In this document: positions 23,500 through 59,496 of the stretch, in pieces
Position numbering within the stretch: the stretch's first letter is position 1
How the letters are laid out: every line of letters starts with the position of its first letter
Assembly (NCBI GenBank): GCA_947495685.1
Contig: CANLZY010000018.1
Location: 3,244 to 67,243, forward strand
Reading direction: 5' to 3'
From: an uncultured Tropicimonas sp.
Lineage (GTDB): Bacteria; Pseudomonadota; Alphaproteobacteria; Rhodobacterales; Rhodobacteraceae
Length of the DNA stretch: 64,000 nucleotides
The notes under the pieces: generated by a model
Seen by the model: only the letters and a program-made list of their open reading frames with translations
Told to the model about the DNA's origin: nothing
Database searches by the model: none
Translations under genes and position numbers: made by a program

Positions 23500-25173
23500 A
23501 TGGCCGATGCAGCCATTCACGGACATGACCATGAGGACAATCGGGGATTTTTCACCCGTTGGTTCATGTCCACCAATCACAAGGACATCGGGATTCTCTA
23601 CCTGATCGTCTCGGCCGCTGTCGGCTTCATTGCGGTGTTCTTCACCGTTCTGATGCGGATCGAGCTGATGACACCCGGTGTGCAACACATGTGCATGGAA
23701 GGGTATCGCACCTTTGCCAGCAGCACTGAGGGCTGTACGCCAAACGGACACATCTGGAACGTGCTGATCACGGCACACGGAATCCTGATGATGTTCTTTG
23801 TTGTCATTCCCGCCCTCTTTGGCGGATTTGGAAACTATTTCATGCCGTTGCAGATCGGTGCGCCGGACATGGCGTTCCCGCGGCTCAACAACCTCAGCTT
23901 CTGGATGTACGTGGCCGGCTGCTGTCTTGCCATTGCCTCGGTGTTCAGCCCCGGCGGCAACGGTCAGCTTGGCTCGGGCGTCGGCTGGGTGCTGTACCCA
24001 CCGCTTTCGGTCAACGAAGGCGGCTATTCGATGGACCTGGCGATCTTTGCCGTGCACGTCTCGGGCGCCAGCTCGATCTTGGGCGCGATCAACATGATCA
24101 CCACCTTCCTGAACATGCGCGCGCCGGGCATGACGCTGCACAAGGTGCCGCTGTTTGCCTGGTCGATCTTTGTCACTGCCTGGCTGATTCTTCTCAGCCT
24201 GCCGGTTCTGGCCGGCGCGATCACCATGCTGCTGACCGACCGCAACTTTGGCACGACCTTCTTTGATCCGGCCGGTGGCGGGGATCCGGTGCTGTACCAG
24301 CACATCCTGTGGTTCTTTGGCCACCCGGAAGTGTACATCGTTATCGTGCCCGGGTTCGGAATTGCCAGCCACGTGATCGCGACCTTCTCGCGCAAGCCGA
24401 TCTTTGGCTACCTGCCGATGGTCTACGCGATGGTTGCGATTGGTGTTCTGGGCTTCGTCGTCTGGGCGCACCACATGTACACCGTTGGCATGTCGCTAAG
24501 CCAGCAGAGCTATTTCATGCTGGCCACGATGGTGATCGCCGTGCCCACCGGGGTGAAGGTGTTCAGTTGGATTGCCACGATGTGGGGCGGCTCGATCGAG
24601 TTCAAGGTGCCCATGCTCTGGGCGATGGGCTTCCTGTTCCTGTTCACCGTCGGTGGTGTGACCGGCGTCGTGCTGAGCCAGGCGGGCGTGGATCGTGCCT
24701 ATCACGACACCTACTACGTGGTTGCGCACTTCCATTACGTGATGAGCCTTGGCGCGGTGTTCTGCATCTTTGCCGGGATATACTTCTGGTTTGGCAAGAT
24801 GTCGGGGCGGCACTACAACGAGCGCCTTGGGCAGATCCATTTCTGGATGATGTTCATCGGCGCCAACCTGACCTTCTTCCCGCAGCACTTCCTCGGGCGT
24901 CAGGGCATGCCGCGTCGCTACATCGACTATCCGGAGGCCTTCGCCACCTGGAACTACGTGTCGTCGATCGGCTCGTTCATCGCATTCGCGTCGTTCCTGC
25001 TGTTCATCTACATCATCGTTCAGGCCCTTCGCTCGGGTGAGAAGATCACCGAGACGAACTACTGGAACGAGTATGCGGATACGCTGGAGTGGACCCTGCC
25101 CTGCCCGCCGCCGGAGCACACCTTCGAGACGCTCCCCAAGCAAAGCGAGTGGGATCACGGCCCCGCCCACTGA
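23500..25173 (+). CDS. ctaD: Cytochrome c oxidase subunit I
   Basis: [37 protein letters not shown] and HHMYTVG heme-copper oxidase signatures. 557 aa. Confidence 0.97.
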
Positions 25174-50966: not shown

Positions 50967-51989
50967 ATGGCTGACTATTGGGTCAAGGCTTACACCGTAT
51001 CCGACTTTTTCGGCGCAGCCGGCGCGGAATCCGTTGCAAATGCAGTGGCAGGGGACGAATTCGTCGGAGGCCAGACTTATCTTTCCCCCGATGCAGTACC
51101 AATCCGCTTCCAAATCTCCGATGACGACGACAGTCTGAAGGACACATGGAACGAGACTGATGCCCCGGCTAGTCTCACCGACGATCTGACGATCGATGGC
51201 GTTACCTATCCGGGCGGGACGTCAAATATCGAATGCGAGTTTTCGGTCACGACCGACAGTTCCCCGCCAGTTACACTCTATATCGGGCGTATCGGGACTG
51301 GCGAGGCCAATTCCGGCACCAACCTGCTGGTCTTTGTCAGTGGGGAGATCGAGCCCGGAACCACGTTCACTCTCGTCAGTACCGCCGATCATGTGTCCAT
51401 GCCGTACGACACAGTTTGCTTTGCCGCCGGGACGATGATCGACACGATCCATGGCCCCACGCCGGTTGAACATCTGTGCCCCGGCGACAAGGTGTTGACC
51501 CGCGATTCCGGAGCCCAGCGCATCATTTGGGTCGGACAACAACGGTTGAGCGCAAGAGACCTTGCGCGGGCGCCACATCTCGCGCCGATCCGTATCCGTG
51601 CCGGAGCGCTCGGCGGCGGCATGCCCTGCACCGATCTTGTGGTTTCGCCGCAGCACCGGGTGCTGATCGACGACTGGAGGGCAGAACATTATTTCGGCGA
51701 GACATCGATTCTTGCCCCGGCAAAGGCGCTTTGCAACGATCAGAATGTAACAATCGATCTCGCGACGCACGACGTTACCTACTGCCACATTCTTCTTGAG
51801 CACCATGAACTGATCCGAGCAAACGGCCAATGGGCTGAAACGCTGATGCTCGGCCCGCAAGCGATCAAAACTTTGGGCAAGGACCAAGTGGCTGAAATAG
51901 AATGTATTTTCCCAGGCCTCATGTTCGACCAGTGCCTGCCTGCCAGCCCGGTTCTAAGCGCATCAGAGGCCGCCATTCTACAGTCCTAG
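50967..51989 (+). CDS. Hint (Hedgehog/intein-like, Hint_2) domain protein
   Basis: The C-terminal module starts at [40 protein letters not shown], followed by [10 protein letters not shown] and [20 protein letters not shown]. The N-terminal ~150 aa are unassigned. Confidence 0.8.
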
Positions 51990-52158
51990 ACACCCGACCG
52001 GTGCCATCAACGCATGGCTCGTTTGTTTCACGGACATGACGGCCGCGTGTCCTAACGGCCCTGTGAATAGCAGTTTATCGCCTCCCCTGCCTACTTTCCT
52101 CTCATGCCCCGCACCAAGCGGATGCAGAACGAACATGAGAACAGGAATAGGTAGATCC

Positions 52159-52449
52159 ATGTCCCACCATATCAAAACTCTCGCCCTGGTTGGCGCCGTA
52201 GCTGCCGCTGTTTCGGGCATCGCAACCACCGCGTCCGCTGCAGACGGCAAGGAAAAGTGCTTCGGCGTCTCGATGGCCGGCAAGAACGACTGCGCCGCCG
52301 GTCCTGGAACCACCTGCGCTGGCACCTCGAAAGTCGACTATCAGGGCAACGCCTGGACGCTGGTCGATGCGGGAACCTGCGAGACAATGGAACTGCCCGA
52401 CGGCCGGATGGGGTCGCTGGAAGCACTCGACCGCGACCTGCCCGCATAA
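52159..52449 (+). CDS. bufA: DUF2282-family bufferin-type RiPP precursor, copy 1
   Basis: 96 aa. Sec-type signal peptide [27 protein letters not shown]. Core [44 protein letters not shown] has four Cys (C-x10-C-x7-C-x20-C). It lies directly upstream of DUF692 and DUF2063 genes. Confidence 0.8.
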
Positions 52450-52501
52450 TCCAGACCAAGCTTTCATCTAGAATTCATACTTCAAAACAGGAAACAGATC
52501 C

Positions 52502-52792
52502 ATGTCCAAGAACCTCAAAGCCCTCGCCCTGATCGGTGCCGTCGCTGCTGCCGTGACCGCCACTGCCACCACTCAGGCCGTCGCCGCCGACAAGGAAAAG
52601 TGCTTCGGCGTCTCGATGGCCGGCAAGAACGACTGCGCCGCCGGCCCCGGCACCACCTGTGCCGGCACCTCCAAGGTCGACTACCAGGGCAACGCCTGGA
52701 CGCTGGTCGACGCCGGTACCTGTGAAAAGATGGAACTGCCGGACGGCCGCATGGGGTCGCTGGAAGCACTCGATCGCGACCTGCCCGCGTAA
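52502..52792 (+). CDS. bufA: DUF2282-family bufferin-type RiPP precursor, copy 2
   Basis: 96 aa. Signal peptide [28 protein letters not shown]. The core is nearly identical to copy 1 (one indel, one T/K change). It has its own AGGAAA-type RBS. Confidence 0.8.
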
Positions 52793-52816
52793 GCCTTGCA
52801 GTTCTTGACCACCCCG

Positions 52817-52842
52817 TGTGCCCGGCCGCAATGCCGGGCACA
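52817..52842 (+). promoter_or_regulatory. Intercistronic stem-loop between precursor genes and the modification enzyme (possible attenuator or processing site)
   Basis: Perfect 10-bp stem TGTGCCCGGC/GCCGGGCACA with a 6-nt loop, followed by TCTTTCC. It sits 25 nt after the bufA2 stop and 26 nt before the bufB ATG. Confidence 0.5.
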
Positions 52843-52867
52843 TCTTTCCAGACCGGACGGACACACC

Positions 52868-53722
52868 ATGCTCGACGCCAACCTTCAGGACCACCTGCCC
52901 CTGGCCCCTGGGGTCGGCTACAAACCGCAGCATTTCTCGGATATCATGACCGATCCCGGTGCGGTGCGATGGCTGGAAATCCATGCCGAGAACTACATGG
53001 GCGATGGCGGACGGCCGATGGCCCAGTTGCGCCATCTGGCGGAACGGTTCCCGATGTCGGTGCATGGCGTCGGCCTGTCCATTGGTGGCGAGGGACCGCT
53101 GGACCGCGACCACCTTGCTCGGCTGTCTCACCTGGTGAAATGGTTAAACCCGGCCAGCTTTTCGGAACACCTCGCGTGGTCTACTCACGAGTCAGCCTTT
53201 CTGAACGACCTACTGCCCCTGCCCTACACCACAGCAACCCTGTCCCGGGTCGCCGATCACATTGATCAGGTACAGGACGCCATCGGGCGGCGGATGCTGC
53301 TTGAAAATCCGTCGACCTACCTCGCATTTGCTGAAAACGAGATGTCCGAAACTGATTTCCTGCGAGACATCGCGCGCCGGACCGGGTGCGGGCTGCTGCT
53401 CGACGTCAACAACGTATTTGTCTCCGCCACCAACCAGCAGACAGACCCGCGCGCCTACATCGCCGACTTTCCATTGGAGCATGTTGGCGAAGTTCACCTG
53501 GGCGGACACGACGAACAGGAAGACGAACACGGCGCGCCGCTGTTGATCGATTCCCACGGCGCCGAGGTCGTGGACCCGGTCTGGACGCTCTACAGCGAGA
53601 CCATCGTCGCGATGGGGCCCCGCCCGACGCTGATCGAATGGGACAACGACGTACCCGATTGGCCCGTGCTGGCCGCCGAAGCTGATCGCGCGGCCCGACT
53701 GCTCGCCCCGGTGCTGCAATGA
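52868..53722 (+). CDS. bufB: DUF692 / MNIO (multinuclear non-heme iron oxidative) enzyme
   Basis: [44 protein letters not shown] and [12 protein letters not shown] are characteristic of the DUF692 TIM barrel. ATG 52868 (track start 52796 is TTG). Confidence 0.85.
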
Positions 53723-54477
53723 CCGTCACTCAGGCCGATTTTCAGGCCGCCATTCTGGACCCGGACCGGGCTGTACCGGGCGGGTTGGTGGACCCTCAGG
53801 GCCGAATTGCCGGCAAGCGGTTCGACGTGTACCGCAACAACGTGGTGGTCAGCCTCTCCAACGCGCTTGGCGAGGCCTTCCCGGTGATCAAGAAGCTTCT
53901 GGGCGACAACAATTTCAACATTCTGGCCGGGCAATTCGTCCGCCAGCATCCGCCGTCGTCACCGGTCATCGCACTCTATGGCGATGAAATGCCCGGGTTT
54001 CTGGAAACCTTCGAACCGGTGCAGTCTCTTGGCTACCTGCCAGATGTTGCGCGGTTGGAACTGGCATTGCGTCAAGCCTATCACGCCGCCGACGCGACCG
54101 CCTTTGACGCGACCATCCTGCAGGACCTGCCCCCGGATCGCCTGTTGTCCGCGCGTTTCACGCTGGCGCCGGCTTTCAGGATGATCGTATCGGACTGGCC
54201 GATCGTTTCCATCTGGCGCTTCAACTCCGAAGATGGCCCAAAGCCATCGATGCGCGCCGAAACCGCGTTGATCACCCGGCCGGACCTGGATCCGACGGTG
54301 GCTGACCTGTCGCCCGCCGGTGGCGCCATGGTTGCCGCCCTGGCGAACCGCGACACCTTCGGCGACGCGATGGAGGCCGCAACGGCGCAGGATCCGGACT
54401 TCGACCTGACCGAAACCCTGAGCGCCCTGATCGCAGGCGGCGCCATCATTGCCATCACCGAGGAGCCCCTGAAATGA
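53719..54477 (+). CDS. bufC: DUF2063-family partner protein of the MNIO enzyme
   Basis: ATG overlaps the bufB stop (ATGA). [45 protein letters not shown] is the DUF2063 N-terminal signature. Confidence 0.8.
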
Positions 54478-55034
54478 CCGCAATCCTCTCTCTGCATGAC
54501 CGGGTTTTTGACCGGATCGATGCGGCTCTGTCCTCCTGGGCTCTGCCAACGCTGGCGCGTTTTTCTTTTGCCGCCGTGCTGCTGATGTATTTCTGGGGGT
54601 CTGCCAGCACCAAGTTGGGGGACGGGATCTTTGGTATCTTCGTGCCGTCCACCGGTGCCTATGCACAGATTTTTCCGTTGAAGGCCGAGGCCGTTCTGTA
54701 CGATAGCAGCCAGTTCTCGATCTTTGAAAAGCTGGTGATCCTGGCCGGCACCTGGGCCGAATTCATCCTGCCATTGCTGATCGTAATTGGCCTGCTCACC
54801 CGTCTGGCCGCCATTGGCATGATGGGCTTCGTCGTCGTACAGAGCCTGACCGACATCCACGGGCATCATGCGGACGCCGCCACCATCGGCGCCTGGTTCG
54901 ACCGGGCCTCCGACAGCCTGATCATGGATCAACGTACCTTCTGGATGTTCGTCCTGATCACCCTCGTACTACGCGGCGCGGGTCCGTTGTCTGTCGATCG
55001 GTTGATCGGCATCGGGCGGCCGGTCGAGGCCTGA
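54474..55034 (+). CDS. DoxX-family membrane protein (fourth gene of the bufferin-type operon)
   Basis: ATG overlaps the upstream stop. Four hydrophobic helices. LARFSFAAVLLMYFWGSASTKL...AEFILPLLIVIGLLTRLAAIGMMGF is DoxX-like. Confidence 0.75.
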   Translation: MTAILSLHDRVFDRIDAALSSWALPTLARFSFAAVLLMYFWGSASTKLGDGIFGIFVPSTGAYAQIFPLKAEAVLYDSSQFSIFEKLVILAGTWAEFILPLLIVIGLLTRLAAIGMMGFVVVQSLTDIHGHHADAATIGAWFDRASDSLIMDQRTFWMFVLITLVLRGAGPLSVDRLIGIGRPVEA

Positions 55035-55197
55035 CCGAAGCAAAGACACTTGTTTTATTTTCGGGTTTTGGCAGGCTGATCGGGTAACGACGCCTGTCGC
55101 GACTCGTTCGGCCCCGGCCTCGAGGATCACGGGCTCCGTCACCATGCCGCCGCAATCTCGCGGGCGGAACAAGACAAGGACGAAGGAGACGCGGGAG

Positions 55198-55404
55198 ATG
55201 CCGACTGGCACCGTGAAATGGTTCAACACCACGAAAGGCTTCGGGTTCATTGCACCCGACGATGGCGGGAAAGACGTGTTCGTTCACATCAGCGCGGTTG
55301 AGCGCGCCGGAATGACCGGATTGGCCGACAACATGAAAATCGAATATGACCTGCGCGAAGGCCGTGACGGTCGGTCTTCAGCGACAGAGCTCAAGGCATT
55401 GTAG
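55198..55404 (+). CDS. Cold-shock protein (CspA family)
   Basis: MPTGTVKWFNTTKGFGFIAPDDGGKDVFVHISAV carries the RNP1/RNP2 motifs. 68 aa. The ~160-nt upstream untranslated region is typical of csp genes. Confidence 0.95.
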   Translation: MPTGTVKWFNTTKGFGFIAPDDGGKDVFVHISAVERAGMTGLADNMKIEYDLREGRDGRSSATELKAL

Positions 55405-55429
55405 ACCTGACGTTATTGAAAGAATGGCG

Positions 55430-55451
55430 CCGCCCGGTCTTCCGGGCGGTT
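55430..55451 (+). terminator. Probable terminator after csp
   Basis: CCGCCCGG-tctt-CCGGGCGG (8 bp) followed by TTGAACGATTT (weak U-tract). Confidence 0.55.
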
Positions 55452-55839
55452 GAACGATTTCAGCCCACCGCAATCTCCGTTGGAACGGTGCGGCGTCGGA
55501 TTGTCGGTTGTTCTGCCTTTCGCGCAATCCGGGACTGATCATGAATAATTACAGGAGGTCAGGGCGGTCAGGGCAGCAATTGCAAATGGGTCAACCCATG
55601 TAGCTCAGATTTTTGCTGCGTCGCAGCGTTACCTGTGGTAACCTACTTGCTGTTAGTCCCGCGTATTCACGCGAGTGCGGAGGTGGGGCCGTCACCATAC
55701 AACTTCTCCCTTGTGTGGGTCCCCCCGGACAGACGGCTCTACCTCTTGCAGCGTGATCCTCCGGGAGTTGCCGCTTCGCCAAGGCGTATGTGGCACGAGG
55801 CGCGTCCTCTTGAACGACGATGGGTCAAGAAGGCCTGTA

Positions 55840-56169
55840 TCACTCCCCCAGCCACATGGCCCTTGCTGTGGGATCCCAGCCGATCGTCCGTCGTTCTCCG
55901 TCTTCGCAGACCGGACGCTTCATCAGCGAGGGATGGCTGGCCAACAGGTCGAGAGGCTCGGCAGCACGGGTCGCCTCGTCCAGGCCGCGCCATGTCGTCG
56001 AGCGTCGGTTGACAAGATCCTCCCCAAATGCATCCAGCAGCAAGCGCCACTCCGGCGTCGACAACGGTTCCTTGCGGATATCGCGGAACTGAACGATGTG
56101 GCCGGCGGCCTCCAGGGACTTTCGCGCCTTGCGGCACGTGTCGCAGGTGGGAATACCGTACAAGATCAT
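55840..56169 (-). CDS. ArsC/Spx-family protein (YffB-like)
   Basis: MILYGIPTCDTCRKARKSLEAAGHIVQFRDIRKEPL...NRRSTTWRGL...SLMKRPV. Start at the internal ATG 56169. Confidence 0.85.
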   Translation of the reverse strand: MILYGIPTCDTCRKARKSLEAAGHIVQFRDIRKEPLSTPEWRLLLDAFGEDLVNRRSTTWRGLDEATRAAEPLDLLASHPSLMKRPVCEDGERRTIGWDPTARAMWLGE

Positions 56170-56236
56170 GGCAATGGCTCCGGTGTTTCGGCGTGGCTCA
56201 TCGCGGCATCGCATGGACACCACGCGCGCGCAAGTT

Positions 56237-56641
56237 TTAGGCCAGCGCTCGCGCAACCAGCACGCCACCCCAAGCCGAAACGCCCGTCAGAACCGCGCCC
56301 CATGTCATGTCGATGGCCACCATGGACGGATGCCAATCCCGCATCACGGTATAGGAGGTCAACTCGTAGGTGCCATATGCCAGCAACCCAAGAACGGCCC
56401 CGTTGAGCAGTGCGGCCGACGGCGCGTCCTCCCTGAGGGCAGGCACGCTCACGAACCACATCACCCCGCCCATGTAGAGCAGGTAGAACAGGATGGCGGG
56501 CGCAATCCTCAGGTCATCCAACAACCCTTGCCCCAGATGACGGTCGAACAGCGGGCGCAGGACCGCAGTCAGCATGACGGCATCCATCACGAGAAAGATA
56601 AGGCTGGTAGCGACGAACAAGGTCAGGAAAATCATAAGCAC
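56237..56641 (-). CDS. DUF2177-family membrane protein
   Basis: 134 aa, 4 helices. LVMDAVMLTAVLRPLF...FYLLYMGG...LLAYGTYELTSYTVMRDW...DMTWG resembles DUF2177. Confidence 0.7.
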   Translation of the reverse strand: MLMIFLTLFVATSLIFLVMDAVMLTAVLRPLFDRHLGQGLLDDLRIAPAILFYLLYMGGVMWFVSVPALREDAPSAALLNGAVLGLLAYGTYELTSYTVMRDWHPSMVAIDMTWGAVLTGVSAWGGVLVARALA

Positions 56642-58815: not shown

Positions 58816-59496
58816 CTATTTCGACGCGCCCTCTGTCGGACCCTCGTTTCCGGTCGCATCTCGATTGATAACGAATTCCATGCCAACCGTAAAAAAAACG
58901 CCGACAGCAGCGGCAATCACGGCAAGAGATATTTTGTCACGATTTCTTCCCCAAAAGGATCTCCGAGATCTGAAGTAGACTTTCGGCCTATCAAGTTTCC
59001 ACATTACAAATAAGGAACTGAATGCCAATATCGCAGCAATAAATTCAATTCCCCCCCAAATTCCGGGAGGCGACAGCCGGCTAATATTGAGCGCGATTAC
59101 CAAAAACGTAGAATTAAAAAAACCAAAGAACCATATCGACCCCAGCGGCGAATACCAAGGAACGAACTCTCTGAGCCTATTCGCAAGATTTTCGGCCATT
59201 GTAGCGCTATCGACTCCACGATCAGAAAAGTGGATTCGTGCGGAGTATTCATTTATGACCACCTCGATTCCTGACACCTTTACCGTTATCGGAGAGGCAA
59301 TAAGACCAAGGCTGGAATCTATTTCATCCCAACCCTCAAGGACAACTCGTGTTGGGTCTCTATAATTTCCGGTTTCTATTTCAACTTCGGCGTCATTCGG
59401 AAAGGATGACTTCAGTGTCGCCAAGAATTCTTCAGAACTCATACGAAAGCTTGGGAGTTTCTTGGAAGGGTTAACCGATCGATTCTTTTCTCTCAT
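58816..59496 (-). CDS. Hypothetical membrane protein, low-GC orphan
   Basis: 226 aa. Visibly AT-rich codons compared with neighbours. N-terminal soluble ~110 aa, then three hydrophobic helices (IWFFGFFNSTFLVIALNI, IEFIAAILAFSSLFVMW, LAVIAAAVGVFFTVGMEFVI). It starts 13 nt after the parE stop. Confidence 0.6.
   Translation of the reverse strand: MREKNRSVNPSKKLPSFRMSSEEFLATLKSSFPNDAEVEIETGNYRDPTRVVLEGWDEIDSSLGLIASPITVKVSGIEVVINEYSARIHFSDRGVDSATMAENLANRLREFVPWYSPLGSIWFFGFFNSTFLVIALNISRLSPPGIWGGIEFIAAILAFSSLFVMWKLDRPKVYFRSRRSFWGRNRDKISLAVIAAAVGVFFTVGMEFVINRDATGNEGPTEGASK

What the first reader, a model, noticed from the sequence alone, without database searches (positions are those of the whole stretch)
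52159..55034. Bufferin-type RiPP operon: two Sec-signal DUF2282 precursors, MNIO (DUF692), DUF2063 partner and DoxX
Five co-oriented genes carry out-of-frame start/stop overlaps (ATGA) at the last two junctions. They comprise two 96-aa ORFs, each with a Sec signal peptide and a four-Cys core (EKCFG..NDCAAG..TTCAG..GTCE), a DUF692/MNIO enzyme, a DUF2063 protein and a DoxX membrane protein. This gene set matches the recently described bufferin family, also seen as gig-like operons. In that family an MNIO enzyme with its DUF2063 partner is reported to convert precursor cysteines into thiooxazole-type heterocycles, yielding exported copper-binding peptides. To my knowledge no locus of this type has been characterised in the roseobacter group. 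No adjacent ECF sigma/anti-sigma, CopR/CueR-type regulator or copper ATPase is visible here. The neighbours are a Hint-domain gene and a csp gene, so the inducing signal and metal specificity are open.
Basis: partly seen in the sequence, partly recalled or inferred. Interest (0 to 1): 0.85.

Follow-up and report, generated by a model that had tools for sequence, protein, structure and literature searches.

The report
Bufferin copper-binding peptide operon, duplicated precursor
This is an ordinary, correctly identified member of the known bufferin family, a gene cluster for exported, enzyme-modified copper-binding peptides; the cluster sits at the same chromosomal spot in all 80 closest relatives among marine Rhodobacterales, and here it lacks the usual stress sigma-factor switch.

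Summary
Five co-oriented genes at 52159-55034 encode two 96-aa DUF2282 precursors, an MNIO enzyme that passes NCBI's BufB equivalog cut-off, a DUF2063 partner and a DoxX protein. The last two junctions are ATGA overlaps.

This is a canonical Buf1-type bufferin cluster. The Cys spacing (11/8/21) is identical to that of characterised Caulobacter Buf1. Tandem precursor genes are already reported for this family, so it is a new member of a known kind.

New points from this work:
- The thrS-bufABCD-csp arrangement is conserved in almost all of the 80 closest Rhodobacterales loci. Only five, including the window, carry two precursors.
- Both copies are old and constrained: 18 synonymous against 1 non-synonymous difference in the core.
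- Only six of the 80 loci keep the Caulobacter-like sigF/nrsF pair. Most others (61 of 79 scanned) instead share a roughly 30-bp double-dyad element upstream of a sigma-70-like promoter; the window carries a degenerate copy at the same position. Its binding factor is unknown.
- A strong hairpin follows the precursor gene(s) in 80 of 81 loci, probably raising precursor mRNA above enzyme mRNA.

Chemistry, metal specificity and inducer remain inferred.

The parts
52037..52070 (+). Degenerate copy of the conserved double-dyad element (tGACG-gccg-CGTGt-cc-tAACG-gccc-TGTGA-ATAG). Rhodobacterales consensus: TcACG-N4-cGTg-N3-CACG-N4-cGTGA-N-TgG. Presumed binding site of an unidentified regulator.
   Evidence: The PWM built from orthologous loci scores 15 bits or more in 61 of 79 loci, at -106 to -152 from the bufA ATG. 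The window copy scores 14 on the trimmed 34-column core matrix, which is within the shuffle range, but it lies at the orthologous position and has the same variant form as L001 and L003.
52074..52098 (+). Putative sigma-70-type promoter: -35-like TTTATC (52074-52079), an 11-nt spacer, and -10-like CTACTTTC (52091-52098).
   Evidence: A fixed 20-nt distance between GTGAnTnG and (g)CTA was read by eye in a sample of the orthologous loci. The element resembles the alphaproteobacterial TTGACGS-N10-14-GCTANAWC consensus, which is cited from memory. The consensus E. coli scan does not call it. No transcription start data are available.
52102..52128 (+). Small stem-loop in the 5' leader (core stem CCGC/GCGG at 52109-52121).
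   Evidence: A hairpin of -5 kcal/mol or stronger lies at the same distance after the -10-like element in 47 of 58 loci, with arms that differ between loci but still pair. Mean MFE is -8.3 against -5.0 +/- 0.27 in shuffles. The window leader folds with z = -3.3.
52159..52449 (+). bufA copy 1: 96-aa Buf1-type precursor. Predicted signal peptide is residues 1-27 (…ASA|AD), leaving a 69-aa core with Cys7/18/26/47.
   Evidence: Pfam DUF2282 87.4 bits. Cys spacing 11/8/21. Exact gene call on record.
52502..52792 (+). bufA copy 2: 96-aa Buf1-type precursor. Predicted signal peptide is residues 1-28 (…AVA|AD), leaving a 68-aa core with Cys6/17/25/46.
   Evidence: Pfam DUF2282 88.4 bits. Its core differs from copy 1 by 18 synonymous and 1 non-synonymous change.
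52816..52843 (+). 11-bp GC-rich hairpin between the last precursor gene and bufB, followed by AUCUUUCC. Presumed leaky terminator or 3' stabiliser of the precursor transcript.
   Evidence: MFE -25.6 kcal/mol, z = -2.3. A stem of at least 8 uninterrupted bp is present in the bufA-bufB spacer of 80 of 81 loci although the sequence is not conserved; median z is -2.95.
52868..53722 (+). bufB: MNIO (DUF692) bufferin maturase, 284 aa.
   Evidence: Pfam PF05114 352.8 bits. NCBIfam MNIO_BufB 382.6 bits, above the 310 cut-off. Nearest solved structure is 3BWW at 154 bits.
53719..54477 (+). bufC: DUF2063 partner protein (TglI/HvfC/PME1-like), 252 aa. Its start overlaps the bufB stop (ATGA).
   Evidence: Pfam DUF2063 88.7 bits. 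AlphaFold2 model pLDDT 93.6. Best Foldseek matches are TglI 8hci_A (E 1.6e-6, TM 0.60) and NGO1945 3dee (E 2.6e-4).
54474..55034 (+). bufD: DoxX-family membrane protein, 186 aa. Its start overlaps the bufC stop (ATGA).
   Evidence: Pfam DoxX 24.6 bits, cut-off 23.6. About four hydrophobic segments. A homologue follows bufC wherever the contig extends that far.

Best explanation
The region is a Buf1-type bufferin (captophorin) biosynthetic operon.

Proposed mechanism, by analogy with the characterised Caulobacter system:
1. Two near-identical precursors are translated.
2. In the cytoplasm BufB, a multinuclear non-haem iron oxidase, works with its partner BufC to oxidise the two central cysteines of each precursor (Cys18/26 of core 1, Cys17/25 of core 2) to 5-thiooxazoles.
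3. The Sec pathway exports the peptide and signal peptidase cleaves after ASA/AVA.
4. The outer cysteines form a disulfide.
5. The folded peptide of about 7 kDa binds copper in the periplasm and buffers excess metal.
6. DoxX is accessory and is not needed for the modification.

Transcription probably starts at a sigma-70-like promoter preceded by a double-dyad element for an unknown regulator, not at a sigmaF promoter. A 5' leader hairpin and a strong hairpin after the second precursor gene probably make the short precursor mRNA more abundant than the read-through enzyme mRNA. The second precursor gene most likely raises dosage rather than adding a new product.

Shown here: gene identities, family membership, Cys register, synteny, selection on the duplicates, and the conserved non-coding elements. 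Inferred: the chemistry, copper binding, promoter use, the role of the hairpins, and the dosage reading.
For: - Profile HMMs: DUF2282 87-88 bits, MNIO 353 bits, DUF2063 89 bits, DoxX 24.6 bits. The BufB equivalog scores 382.6 against a cut-off of 310.
- Cys spacing of 11/8/21 in both cores equals that of Caulobacter Buf1 (Cys12/23/31/52). There CysII and CysIII are thiooxazoles, CysI-CysIV form a disulfide, BufB plus BufC are necessary and sufficient, and DoxX is dispensable (PMC11626156).
- The BufC model (pLDDT 93.6) matches the MNIO partner TglI and the founding DUF2063 structure 3DEE.
- The BufB motifs HG, SxHL, EN, DxNN, HxxGH, DxHG and ExD align with 3BWW and TglH.
- The operon is intact, with ATGA overlaps.
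- At least 582 genome stretches encode a BufB relative. The best 80 are all from Rhodobacterales, Paracoccaceae or unclassified Alphaproteobacteria/Pseudomonadota, with the same bufABCD order and thrS upstream in nearly all.
- The paralogue cores differ by 18 synonymous and 1 non-synonymous change (dS 0.53, dN 0.007).
- Conserved upstream element, leader hairpin and post-precursor hairpin.
Against: - No experiment exists for this organism or any roseobacter.
- No metal-responsive regulator, sigF/nrsF pair or other sigmaF-type gene was found in the 64-kb window; copper exporters and CopR/CueR were not searched for. Copper inducibility is therefore unsupported here.
- The window's copy of the upstream element is degenerate and is not statistically distinguishable from chance on its own.
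- The promoter is inferred from conservation only. The consensus E. coli-type scan does not call it.
- Only 15 of 81 post-precursor hairpins have a T-rich tail, so termination is not assured.
- The DoxX score is barely above its cut-off.
- No signal-peptide predictor was run.
Confidence: 0.85

Rival explanations
1. The chemistry is the same, but the physiological role is not a copper-stress response. The operon would be a constitutively or otherwise regulated housekeeping periplasmic buffer. It might serve another thiophilic metal or a redox or sulfur stress, as hinted by DoxX and the conserved neighbouring ArsC/Spx-like thioredoxin-fold gene.
For: - No sigF/nrsF in the window, and only 6 of 80 related loci keep them.
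- The promoter looks sigma-70-like.
- The locus is inherited with thrS, like a core gene.
- An ArsC-family gene with a CxxC motif lies just downstream in most loci.
- gig operons respond to gold, cadmium, chromate and copper in other species (PMC3511200).
Against: All characterised thiooxazole peptides of this class bind copper (PMC11626156, PMC13097082). A conserved upstream element implies regulation rather than constitutive expression. The conserved neighbourhood can be explained by vertical inheritance alone.
Confidence: 0.2
2. BufC (DUF2063, which Pfam calls a 'putative DNA-binding domain') also acts as the DNA-binding regulator of its own operon, through the double-dyad element.
For: The element was found upstream of no gene other than bufA, and no regulator gene is linked to it. 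In the metagenome scan, 24 of 120 exact pattern matches lie at bufA. In the repeated cases among the rest (groups of 4-5 loci sharing a homologous ORF), the match lies inside an unrelated coding region. The founding structure 3DEE was deposited as a putative transcription regulator.
Against: The DNA-binding idea for DUF2063 rested on structure alone. BufC and its relatives are now shown to be MNIO partner or peptide-recognition proteins. The best structural match is TglI inside an enzyme complex. No helix-turn-helix was tested.
Confidence: 0.05
3. One of the two precursor genes is a redundant, decaying duplicate, or an assembly artefact.
For: The mature peptides are almost identical, so a second product adds little. 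In L004 one of two copies has lost CysII and CysIII.
Against: The window copies differ at 49 nucleotide positions, so they are not an assembly repeat. The core has 18 synonymous against 1 non-synonymous difference. Both keep the start codon, a similar ribosome-binding region, the signal peptide and all four Cys. The same tandem is present in L001-L003.
Confidence: 0.05

Closest known systems
Caulobacter vibrioides buf1 operon (bufA1B1C1D1, CCNA_03363-03366 / CC3254-3257), the founding Buf1 bufferin
   Same: Same four gene families in the same order. The precursor is DUF2282 with a Sec signal peptide and the identical Cys register (11/8/21). The core is about 68 residues. Both are Alphaproteobacteria.
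   Different: Here the precursor gene is duplicated in tandem. No divergent sigF-nrsF pair and no GTAACC-N16-CGAA promoter are present; instead there is a double-dyad element and a sigma-70-like promoter. The residues flanking CysII and CysIII differ (NDC-A and TTC-A here, against D-C-K and S-C-A).
Cupriavidus metallidurans and Legionella pneumophila gig (gold-induced genes) operons
   Same: Same DUF2282-DUF692-DUF2063-DoxX composition.
   Different: Those operons are known to be metal-induced. Nothing is known about induction here, and the regulatory context differs.
Haemophilus influenzae hvfXABC (oxazolin) and Fontimonas fontiphorin; the 'captophorin' class
   Same: MNIO plus DUF2063 partner plus DoxX, a Sec-exported Cys-rich precursor, and copper-binding thiooxazoles.
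   Different: Those precursors have EGKCG repeats, not DUF2282. The window enzyme scores below the HvfB cut-off (244.7 against 360) and the partner below the HvfC cut-off (48.1 against 142).
Methanobactin MbnBC and TglHI
   Same: Same enzyme superfamily and the same enzyme-plus-partner logic. BufC's best structural match is TglI.
   Different: Different precursors, chemistry and export. MbnB scores 48.7 bits against a cut-off of 325.

Membership tests
Buf1-type bufferin BGC (DUF2282 bufferins / captophorins) | Precursor matches the DUF2282 profile | tested here: met
   87.4 and 88.4 bits against a cut-off of 22.4, over profile positions 1-51 of 53.
Buf1-type bufferin BGC (DUF2282 bufferins / captophorins) | Four conserved Cys in the Buf1 register | tested here: met
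   Spacing is 11/8/21 in both copies, equal to Cys12/23/31/52 of C. vibrioides Buf1. The four Cys are present in 84 of the 87 BufA sequences read from these loci; the exceptions are L004 copy 1, L041 and the truncated L015.
Buf1-type bufferin BGC (DUF2282 bufferins / captophorins) | N-terminal Sec signal peptide on the precursor | tested here: met
   By inspection only: a basic n-region (MSHHIK / MSKNLK), 16 hydrophobic residues, then ASA|AD and AVA|AD. No signal-peptide predictor was available.
Buf1-type bufferin BGC (DUF2282 bufferins / captophorins) | Adjacent MNIO enzyme of the bufferin subfamily | tested here: met
   NCBIfam MNIO_BufB equivalog scores 382.6 bits against a cut-off of 310. 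Pfam PF05114 scores 352.8 bits.
Buf1-type bufferin BGC (DUF2282 bufferins / captophorins) | Iron-ligand motifs of MNIOs conserved | tested here: met
   H66 (HG), H101 (SEHL), E146 (EN), D179/N181 (DVNN), H210/H214, D228/H230 and E257 align with the same residues in 3BWW. Which of these are iron ligands is recalled from MbnB structures and was not verified here.
Buf1-type bufferin BGC (DUF2282 bufferins / captophorins) | DUF2063 partner protein with a C-terminal peptide-recognition-like domain | tested here: met
   Pfam DUF2063 88.7 bits on residues 4-95. The full-length model matches TglI (TM 0.60) and 3DEE. Resemblance to RRE proteins (5v1v) is only weak, E 4.3.
Buf1-type bufferin BGC (DUF2282 bufferins / captophorins) | DoxX gene in the cluster (frequent, not obligatory) | tested here: met
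   24.6 bits against a cut-off of 23.6, which is marginal. It is a membrane protein, is translationally coupled to bufC, and is conserved in related loci.
Buf1-type bufferin BGC (DUF2282 bufferins / captophorins) | SigF/NrsF regulation (accessory; found in part of Buf1 BGCs) | tested here: not met
   No relative of either gene in the 64-kb window. No GTAACC-N16-CGAA motif upstream of bufA. Six related loci do have both. The rest of the genome could not be searched.
Buf1-type bufferin BGC (DUF2282 bufferins / captophorins) | 5-thiooxazole formation on the central Cys, and copper binding by the product | not testable with these tools
   Needs mass spectrometry, UV and NMR on the co-expressed product.
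Buf2 (Buf_6/12Cys, NCBIfam 'BufA2') bufferins | Precursor matches the BufA2 equivalog, with six or twelve Cys | tested here: not met
   Copy 2 scores 19.9 bits against a cut-off of 60; copy 1 has no hit; each has four Cys.
Oxazolin / Hvf system | HvfB, HvfC and HvfX equivalogs, and an EGKCG-repeat precursor | tested here: not met
   Scores of 244.7 against 360, 48.1 against 142 and 30.2 against 80. No EGKCG repeats.
Methanobactin (MbnB) | MbnB equivalog | tested here: not met
   48.7 bits against a cut-off of 325.

The most novel reading that the evidence does not exclude
In most Rhodobacterales, including this genome, the bufferin operon has become a vertically inherited core locus next to thrS and has been uncoupled from the ancestral sigmaF/NrsF metal-stress switch. 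It is instead controlled by a still unidentified factor through a double-dyad element of about 30 bp (TCACG-N4-CGTG-N3-CACG-N4-CGTGA) that was found upstream of no other gene. The precursor mRNA is bracketed by conserved hairpins that set precursor-to-enzyme stoichiometry. That would be a new regulatory solution for a RiPP metallophore in abundant marine bacteria, and the tandem precursors would be a further dosage increase.
Probability: 0.35. Interest if true: 0.45.

Novelty: new member of a known kind. Interest (0 to 1): 0.3.

Why it matters
Bufferins are a recently recognised and very widespread way for bacteria to cope with copper. If the roseobacter version works like the Caulobacter one, then a large group of marine bacteria carries a periplasmic copper buffer as part of its core genome. 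That bears on copper cycling and toxicity in the sea and on alga-bacterium interactions.

The specific value of this locus is modest. It gives a clean natural case of duplicated precursors under strong constraint. It also shows, with its relatives, that the sigmaF/NrsF switch has been replaced by another, unknown control element. That makes the question of what signal turns on bufferins outside Caulobacter directly testable with a short DNA probe.

Tried and rejected
- **Rfam.** The operon scan at E <= 1 gave only a weak cspA-thermoregulator match over the csp leader (22.8 bits against 78) and a 20-nt match to Caulobacter sRNA CC0196 on the intercistronic hairpin (21.1 against 35). Neither is meaningful. 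The whole-window gathering scan found only two tRNAs.\n- **RNAalifold on the leaders.** A MAFFT alignment of 58 leaders predicted no pairs, because variable loop lengths misaligned the 3' arms. I replaced it with per-sequence folding plus a shuffle control.\n- **Search for other regulated genes.** A PWM scan of the window and of 80 genome loci found no second convincing site; the window's own site scores within the shuffle range. The single dyad TCACG-N4-CGTGA is not enriched in the window: 3 matches against 3.6 expected. The strict double-dyad pattern in metagenomes gave 120 stretches. Twenty-four lie between thrS and bufA. The recurrent groups among the rest lie inside unrelated coding regions such as purM-like genes and oxidoreductases.\n- **Naming the regulator.** I could not match the dyad to any regulator motif I know. 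The closest relatives are Tropicimonas and Aliiruegeria (ThrS 92-94 %, BufB 83-84 %).\n- **The consensus promoter/terminator scan** found nothing useful in the region.
Full report
**Observation.** The last two junctions are ATGA overlaps. Pfam gives DUF2282 at 87.4 and 88.4 bits, MbnB_TglH_ChrH at 352.8 bits, DUF2063 at 88.7 bits and DoxX at 24.6 bits, just over its 23.6 cut-off. NCBIfam places the enzyme in the MNIO_BufB equivalog (382.6 bits, cut-off 310) and below the cut-offs for HvfB, ApyH, MbnB and ChrH. The same protein sequences with the same starts are already gene calls in an NCBI-derived collection.

**What it is.** The gene set and order are those of the Caulobacter buf1 / Cupriavidus gig operons. 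With predicted cleavage after ASA and AVA, the cores are 69 and 68 residues long. Their four Cys are spaced 11, 8 and 21 residues apart, which is exactly the spacing of Cys12/23/31/52 in C. vibrioides Buf1. In that system several points have been shown:
- CysII and CysIII each lose 4 Da and become 5-thiooxazoles.
- CysI and CysIV form a disulfide.
- BufB plus BufC are necessary and sufficient for the modification.
- DoxX is dispensable.
- The Sec signal peptide is cleaved at the predicted site.
- The product binds Cu(I) and Cu(II) very tightly.

A later study confirms thiooxazoles for related systems and calls the class captophorins.

The nearest solved relative of BufB is the DUF692 protein 3BWW (154 bits), followed by TglH and MbnB. 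The His/Asp/Glu motifs I recall as iron ligands are all present.

BufC has no sequence match in the PDB. An AlphaFold2 model built from 60 homologues (pLDDT 93.6) matches TglI, the partner of the MNIO TglH, at E 1.6e-6 and TM 0.60. It also matches NGO1945 (3DEE), the founding DUF2063 structure. Public annotation already names close homologues 'HvfC/BufC N-terminal domain-containing protein'.

Neither precursor is a Buf2-type (Buf_6/12Cys) peptide.

**Distribution and synteny.** A scan of one genome per species found at least 582 stretches encoding a BufB relative. The best 80 are at 72-84 % identity. They are all Rhodobacterales, Paracoccaceae or unclassified Alphaproteobacteria/Pseudomonadota, led by Tropicimonas and Aliiruegeria. 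In almost all of them thrS lies upstream and bufA-bufB-bufC-bufD follow, usually with an ArsC-family gene and csp downstream. The cluster is therefore a vertically inherited locus at a fixed position in this order, not an island. The window organism is close to Tropicimonas and Aliiruegeria (ThrS 92-94 %). The Hint-domain gene between thrS and bufA is a lineage-specific insertion, present only in L001, L003, L052 and L077 besides the window.

**The duplication.** Two precursor genes occur only in L001-L004 and the window among the 81 loci compared, and in one metagenomic contig (L160). Tandem precursor genes in bufferin clusters have been noted before. In the window, the two cores differ by 18 synonymous and 1 non-synonymous substitution (dS 0.53, dN 0.007). 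The signal peptides have diverged more freely (dN 0.27). Both copies keep a similar ribosome-binding region. This is an old duplication with both cores under strong purifying selection. It yields nearly identical mature peptides (Thr/Lys at one position, plus one extra Gly), which fits a dosage role better than diversification. In L004, by contrast, one copy has lost CysII and CysIII.

**Regulation.** tblastn with a SigF/NrsF pair from a related locus finds nothing in the 64-kb window.

Six of the 80 related loci (L011, L021, L030, L054, L069, L078) do carry a divergent ECF sigma gene and an NrsF gene between thrS and bufA (NrsF at 176 bits in Pfam). The same six have GTAAC(A/G)-N16-CGAA upstream of bufA (N17 in L069). 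That is the sigmaF promoter motif determined in Caulobacter. This arrangement equals the Caulobacter one and is probably ancestral.

The majority, including the window, have instead a conserved element: TcACG-N4-cGTg-N3-CACG-N4-cGTGA-N-TgG. It occurs in 61 of 79 loci, 106-152 nt before the start codon. By eye, a -35-like TTGAyc, a spacer of about 11 nt and a -10-like gCTAg follow at a fixed distance. This resembles the alphaproteobacterial housekeeping promoter consensus as I recall it.

The six sigF loci carry a single TCAC-N6-GTGA dyad directly before the sigmaF -35 box. The same unknown factor may therefore act in both arrangements. The Caulobacter study also inferred an unidentified second regulator at sigF.

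The window's copy (52037-52070) is degenerate. It scores 14 on the trimmed core matrix, within the range of shuffles. I accept it only because it is positionally orthologous and shares its variant form with L001 and L003.

An exact-pattern scan of metagenomes returned 120 stretches. Twenty-four lie in the thrS-bufA spacer. The recurrent groups among the rest sit inside unrelated coding regions. No other target gene and no regulator gene emerged. I could not assign the dyad to a known regulator family.

**RNA features.** After the -10-like element, 47 of 58 loci have a small stem-loop whose arms vary but still pair. Mean MFE is -8.3 against -5.0 +/- 0.27 kcal/mol in shuffles. The window leader folds with z = -3.3.

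Between the last bufA and bufB, 80 of 81 loci have an uninterrupted stem of at least 8 bp with no sequence conservation; median z is -2.95. The window stem is 11 bp at 52816-52843, with -25.6 kcal/mol and z = -2.3. The spacer between the two window precursor genes has no such hairpin. Only 15 of 81 hairpins have a T-rich tail. I therefore read the hairpin as a leaky terminator or a 3' stabiliser that raises precursor mRNA over enzyme mRNA, as is common in peptide natural-product operons. This is inference. The held bufferin papers do not mention a terminator or stem-loop.

**Comparison and verdict.** Every defining feature of a Buf1-type bufferin cluster that can be tested in silico is met. 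The accessory sigF/nrsF module is not. The chemistry and metal binding cannot be tested here. The finding is a correct identification of a known system. Its particular points are the duplicated constrained precursors, the fixed chromosomal position across Rhodobacterales, the replacement of the sigmaF switch by an unassigned double-dyad element, and the conserved hairpins. These are moderate additions rather than a new kind of system. I rate novelty as 'new member of a known kind' and interest at 0.3.

Noticed in passing
window 55840-56268 (- strand; likely true start gives about 110 aa, MILYGIPTCDTC…): An ArsC/Spx-family thioredoxin-fold gene with an N-terminal CxxC motif. It scores 51.5 bits for Pfam ArsC and 64.6 bits for TIGR01617, below that model's cut-off of 75. 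A homologue lies just downstream of bufD in most of the 80 related loci. It may simply be syntenic, or it may be functionally linked to the thiol-rich product.
   Followed up: partly
window 50967-51989 (+): A Hint_2-domain protein (180 bits) is inserted between thrS and the bufA control region. It is present only in L001, L003, L052 and L077 among the relatives, so it is not part of the operon.
   Followed up: partly
window 55034-55473 (+): The csp gene (55195-55404) has a leader of about 160 nt that weakly resembles the Rfam cspA thermoregulator (22.8 bits, gathering score 78).
   Followed up: no
window 58816-59496 (- strand): A low-GC stretch (0.45 against about 0.61 around it) encodes a 226-aa hypothetical membrane protein next to a topoisomerase B-subunit gene. 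It is possibly of foreign origin.
   Followed up: no
L004:4951-5951: A tandem bufA pair in which the first copy has lost CysII and CysIII (…NDGGDDPAIAAG…). The double-dyad element lies before the second copy only (5461). The second copy has a 23-residue C-terminal extension.
   Followed up: partly
L014:5890-5923: A second good copy of the double-dyad element (28.5 bits) lies between bufA and bufB. This suggests a separate promoter for the enzyme genes in that species.
   Followed up: no
L015, L040, L048, L004 copy 2 (BufA C-termini): Some Rhodobacterales BufA proteins carry an extra C-terminal tail (…EAxGYxGLARDLPxGxD…) beyond the usual …RDLPA end. The sigF-type loci have an internal insertion instead (…EPVLADGTKVMLP…).
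   Followed up: no
L175:1301-1626: Three copies of the palindromic search pattern occur within about 330 nt of one metagenomic contig that has no buf genes. This is probably an unrelated repeat element.
   Followed up: no
window 23500-25173 (+): A cytochrome c oxidase subunit I (ctaD-like) gene, a copper enzyme, lies about 27 kb upstream. No functional link is implied.
   Followed up: no
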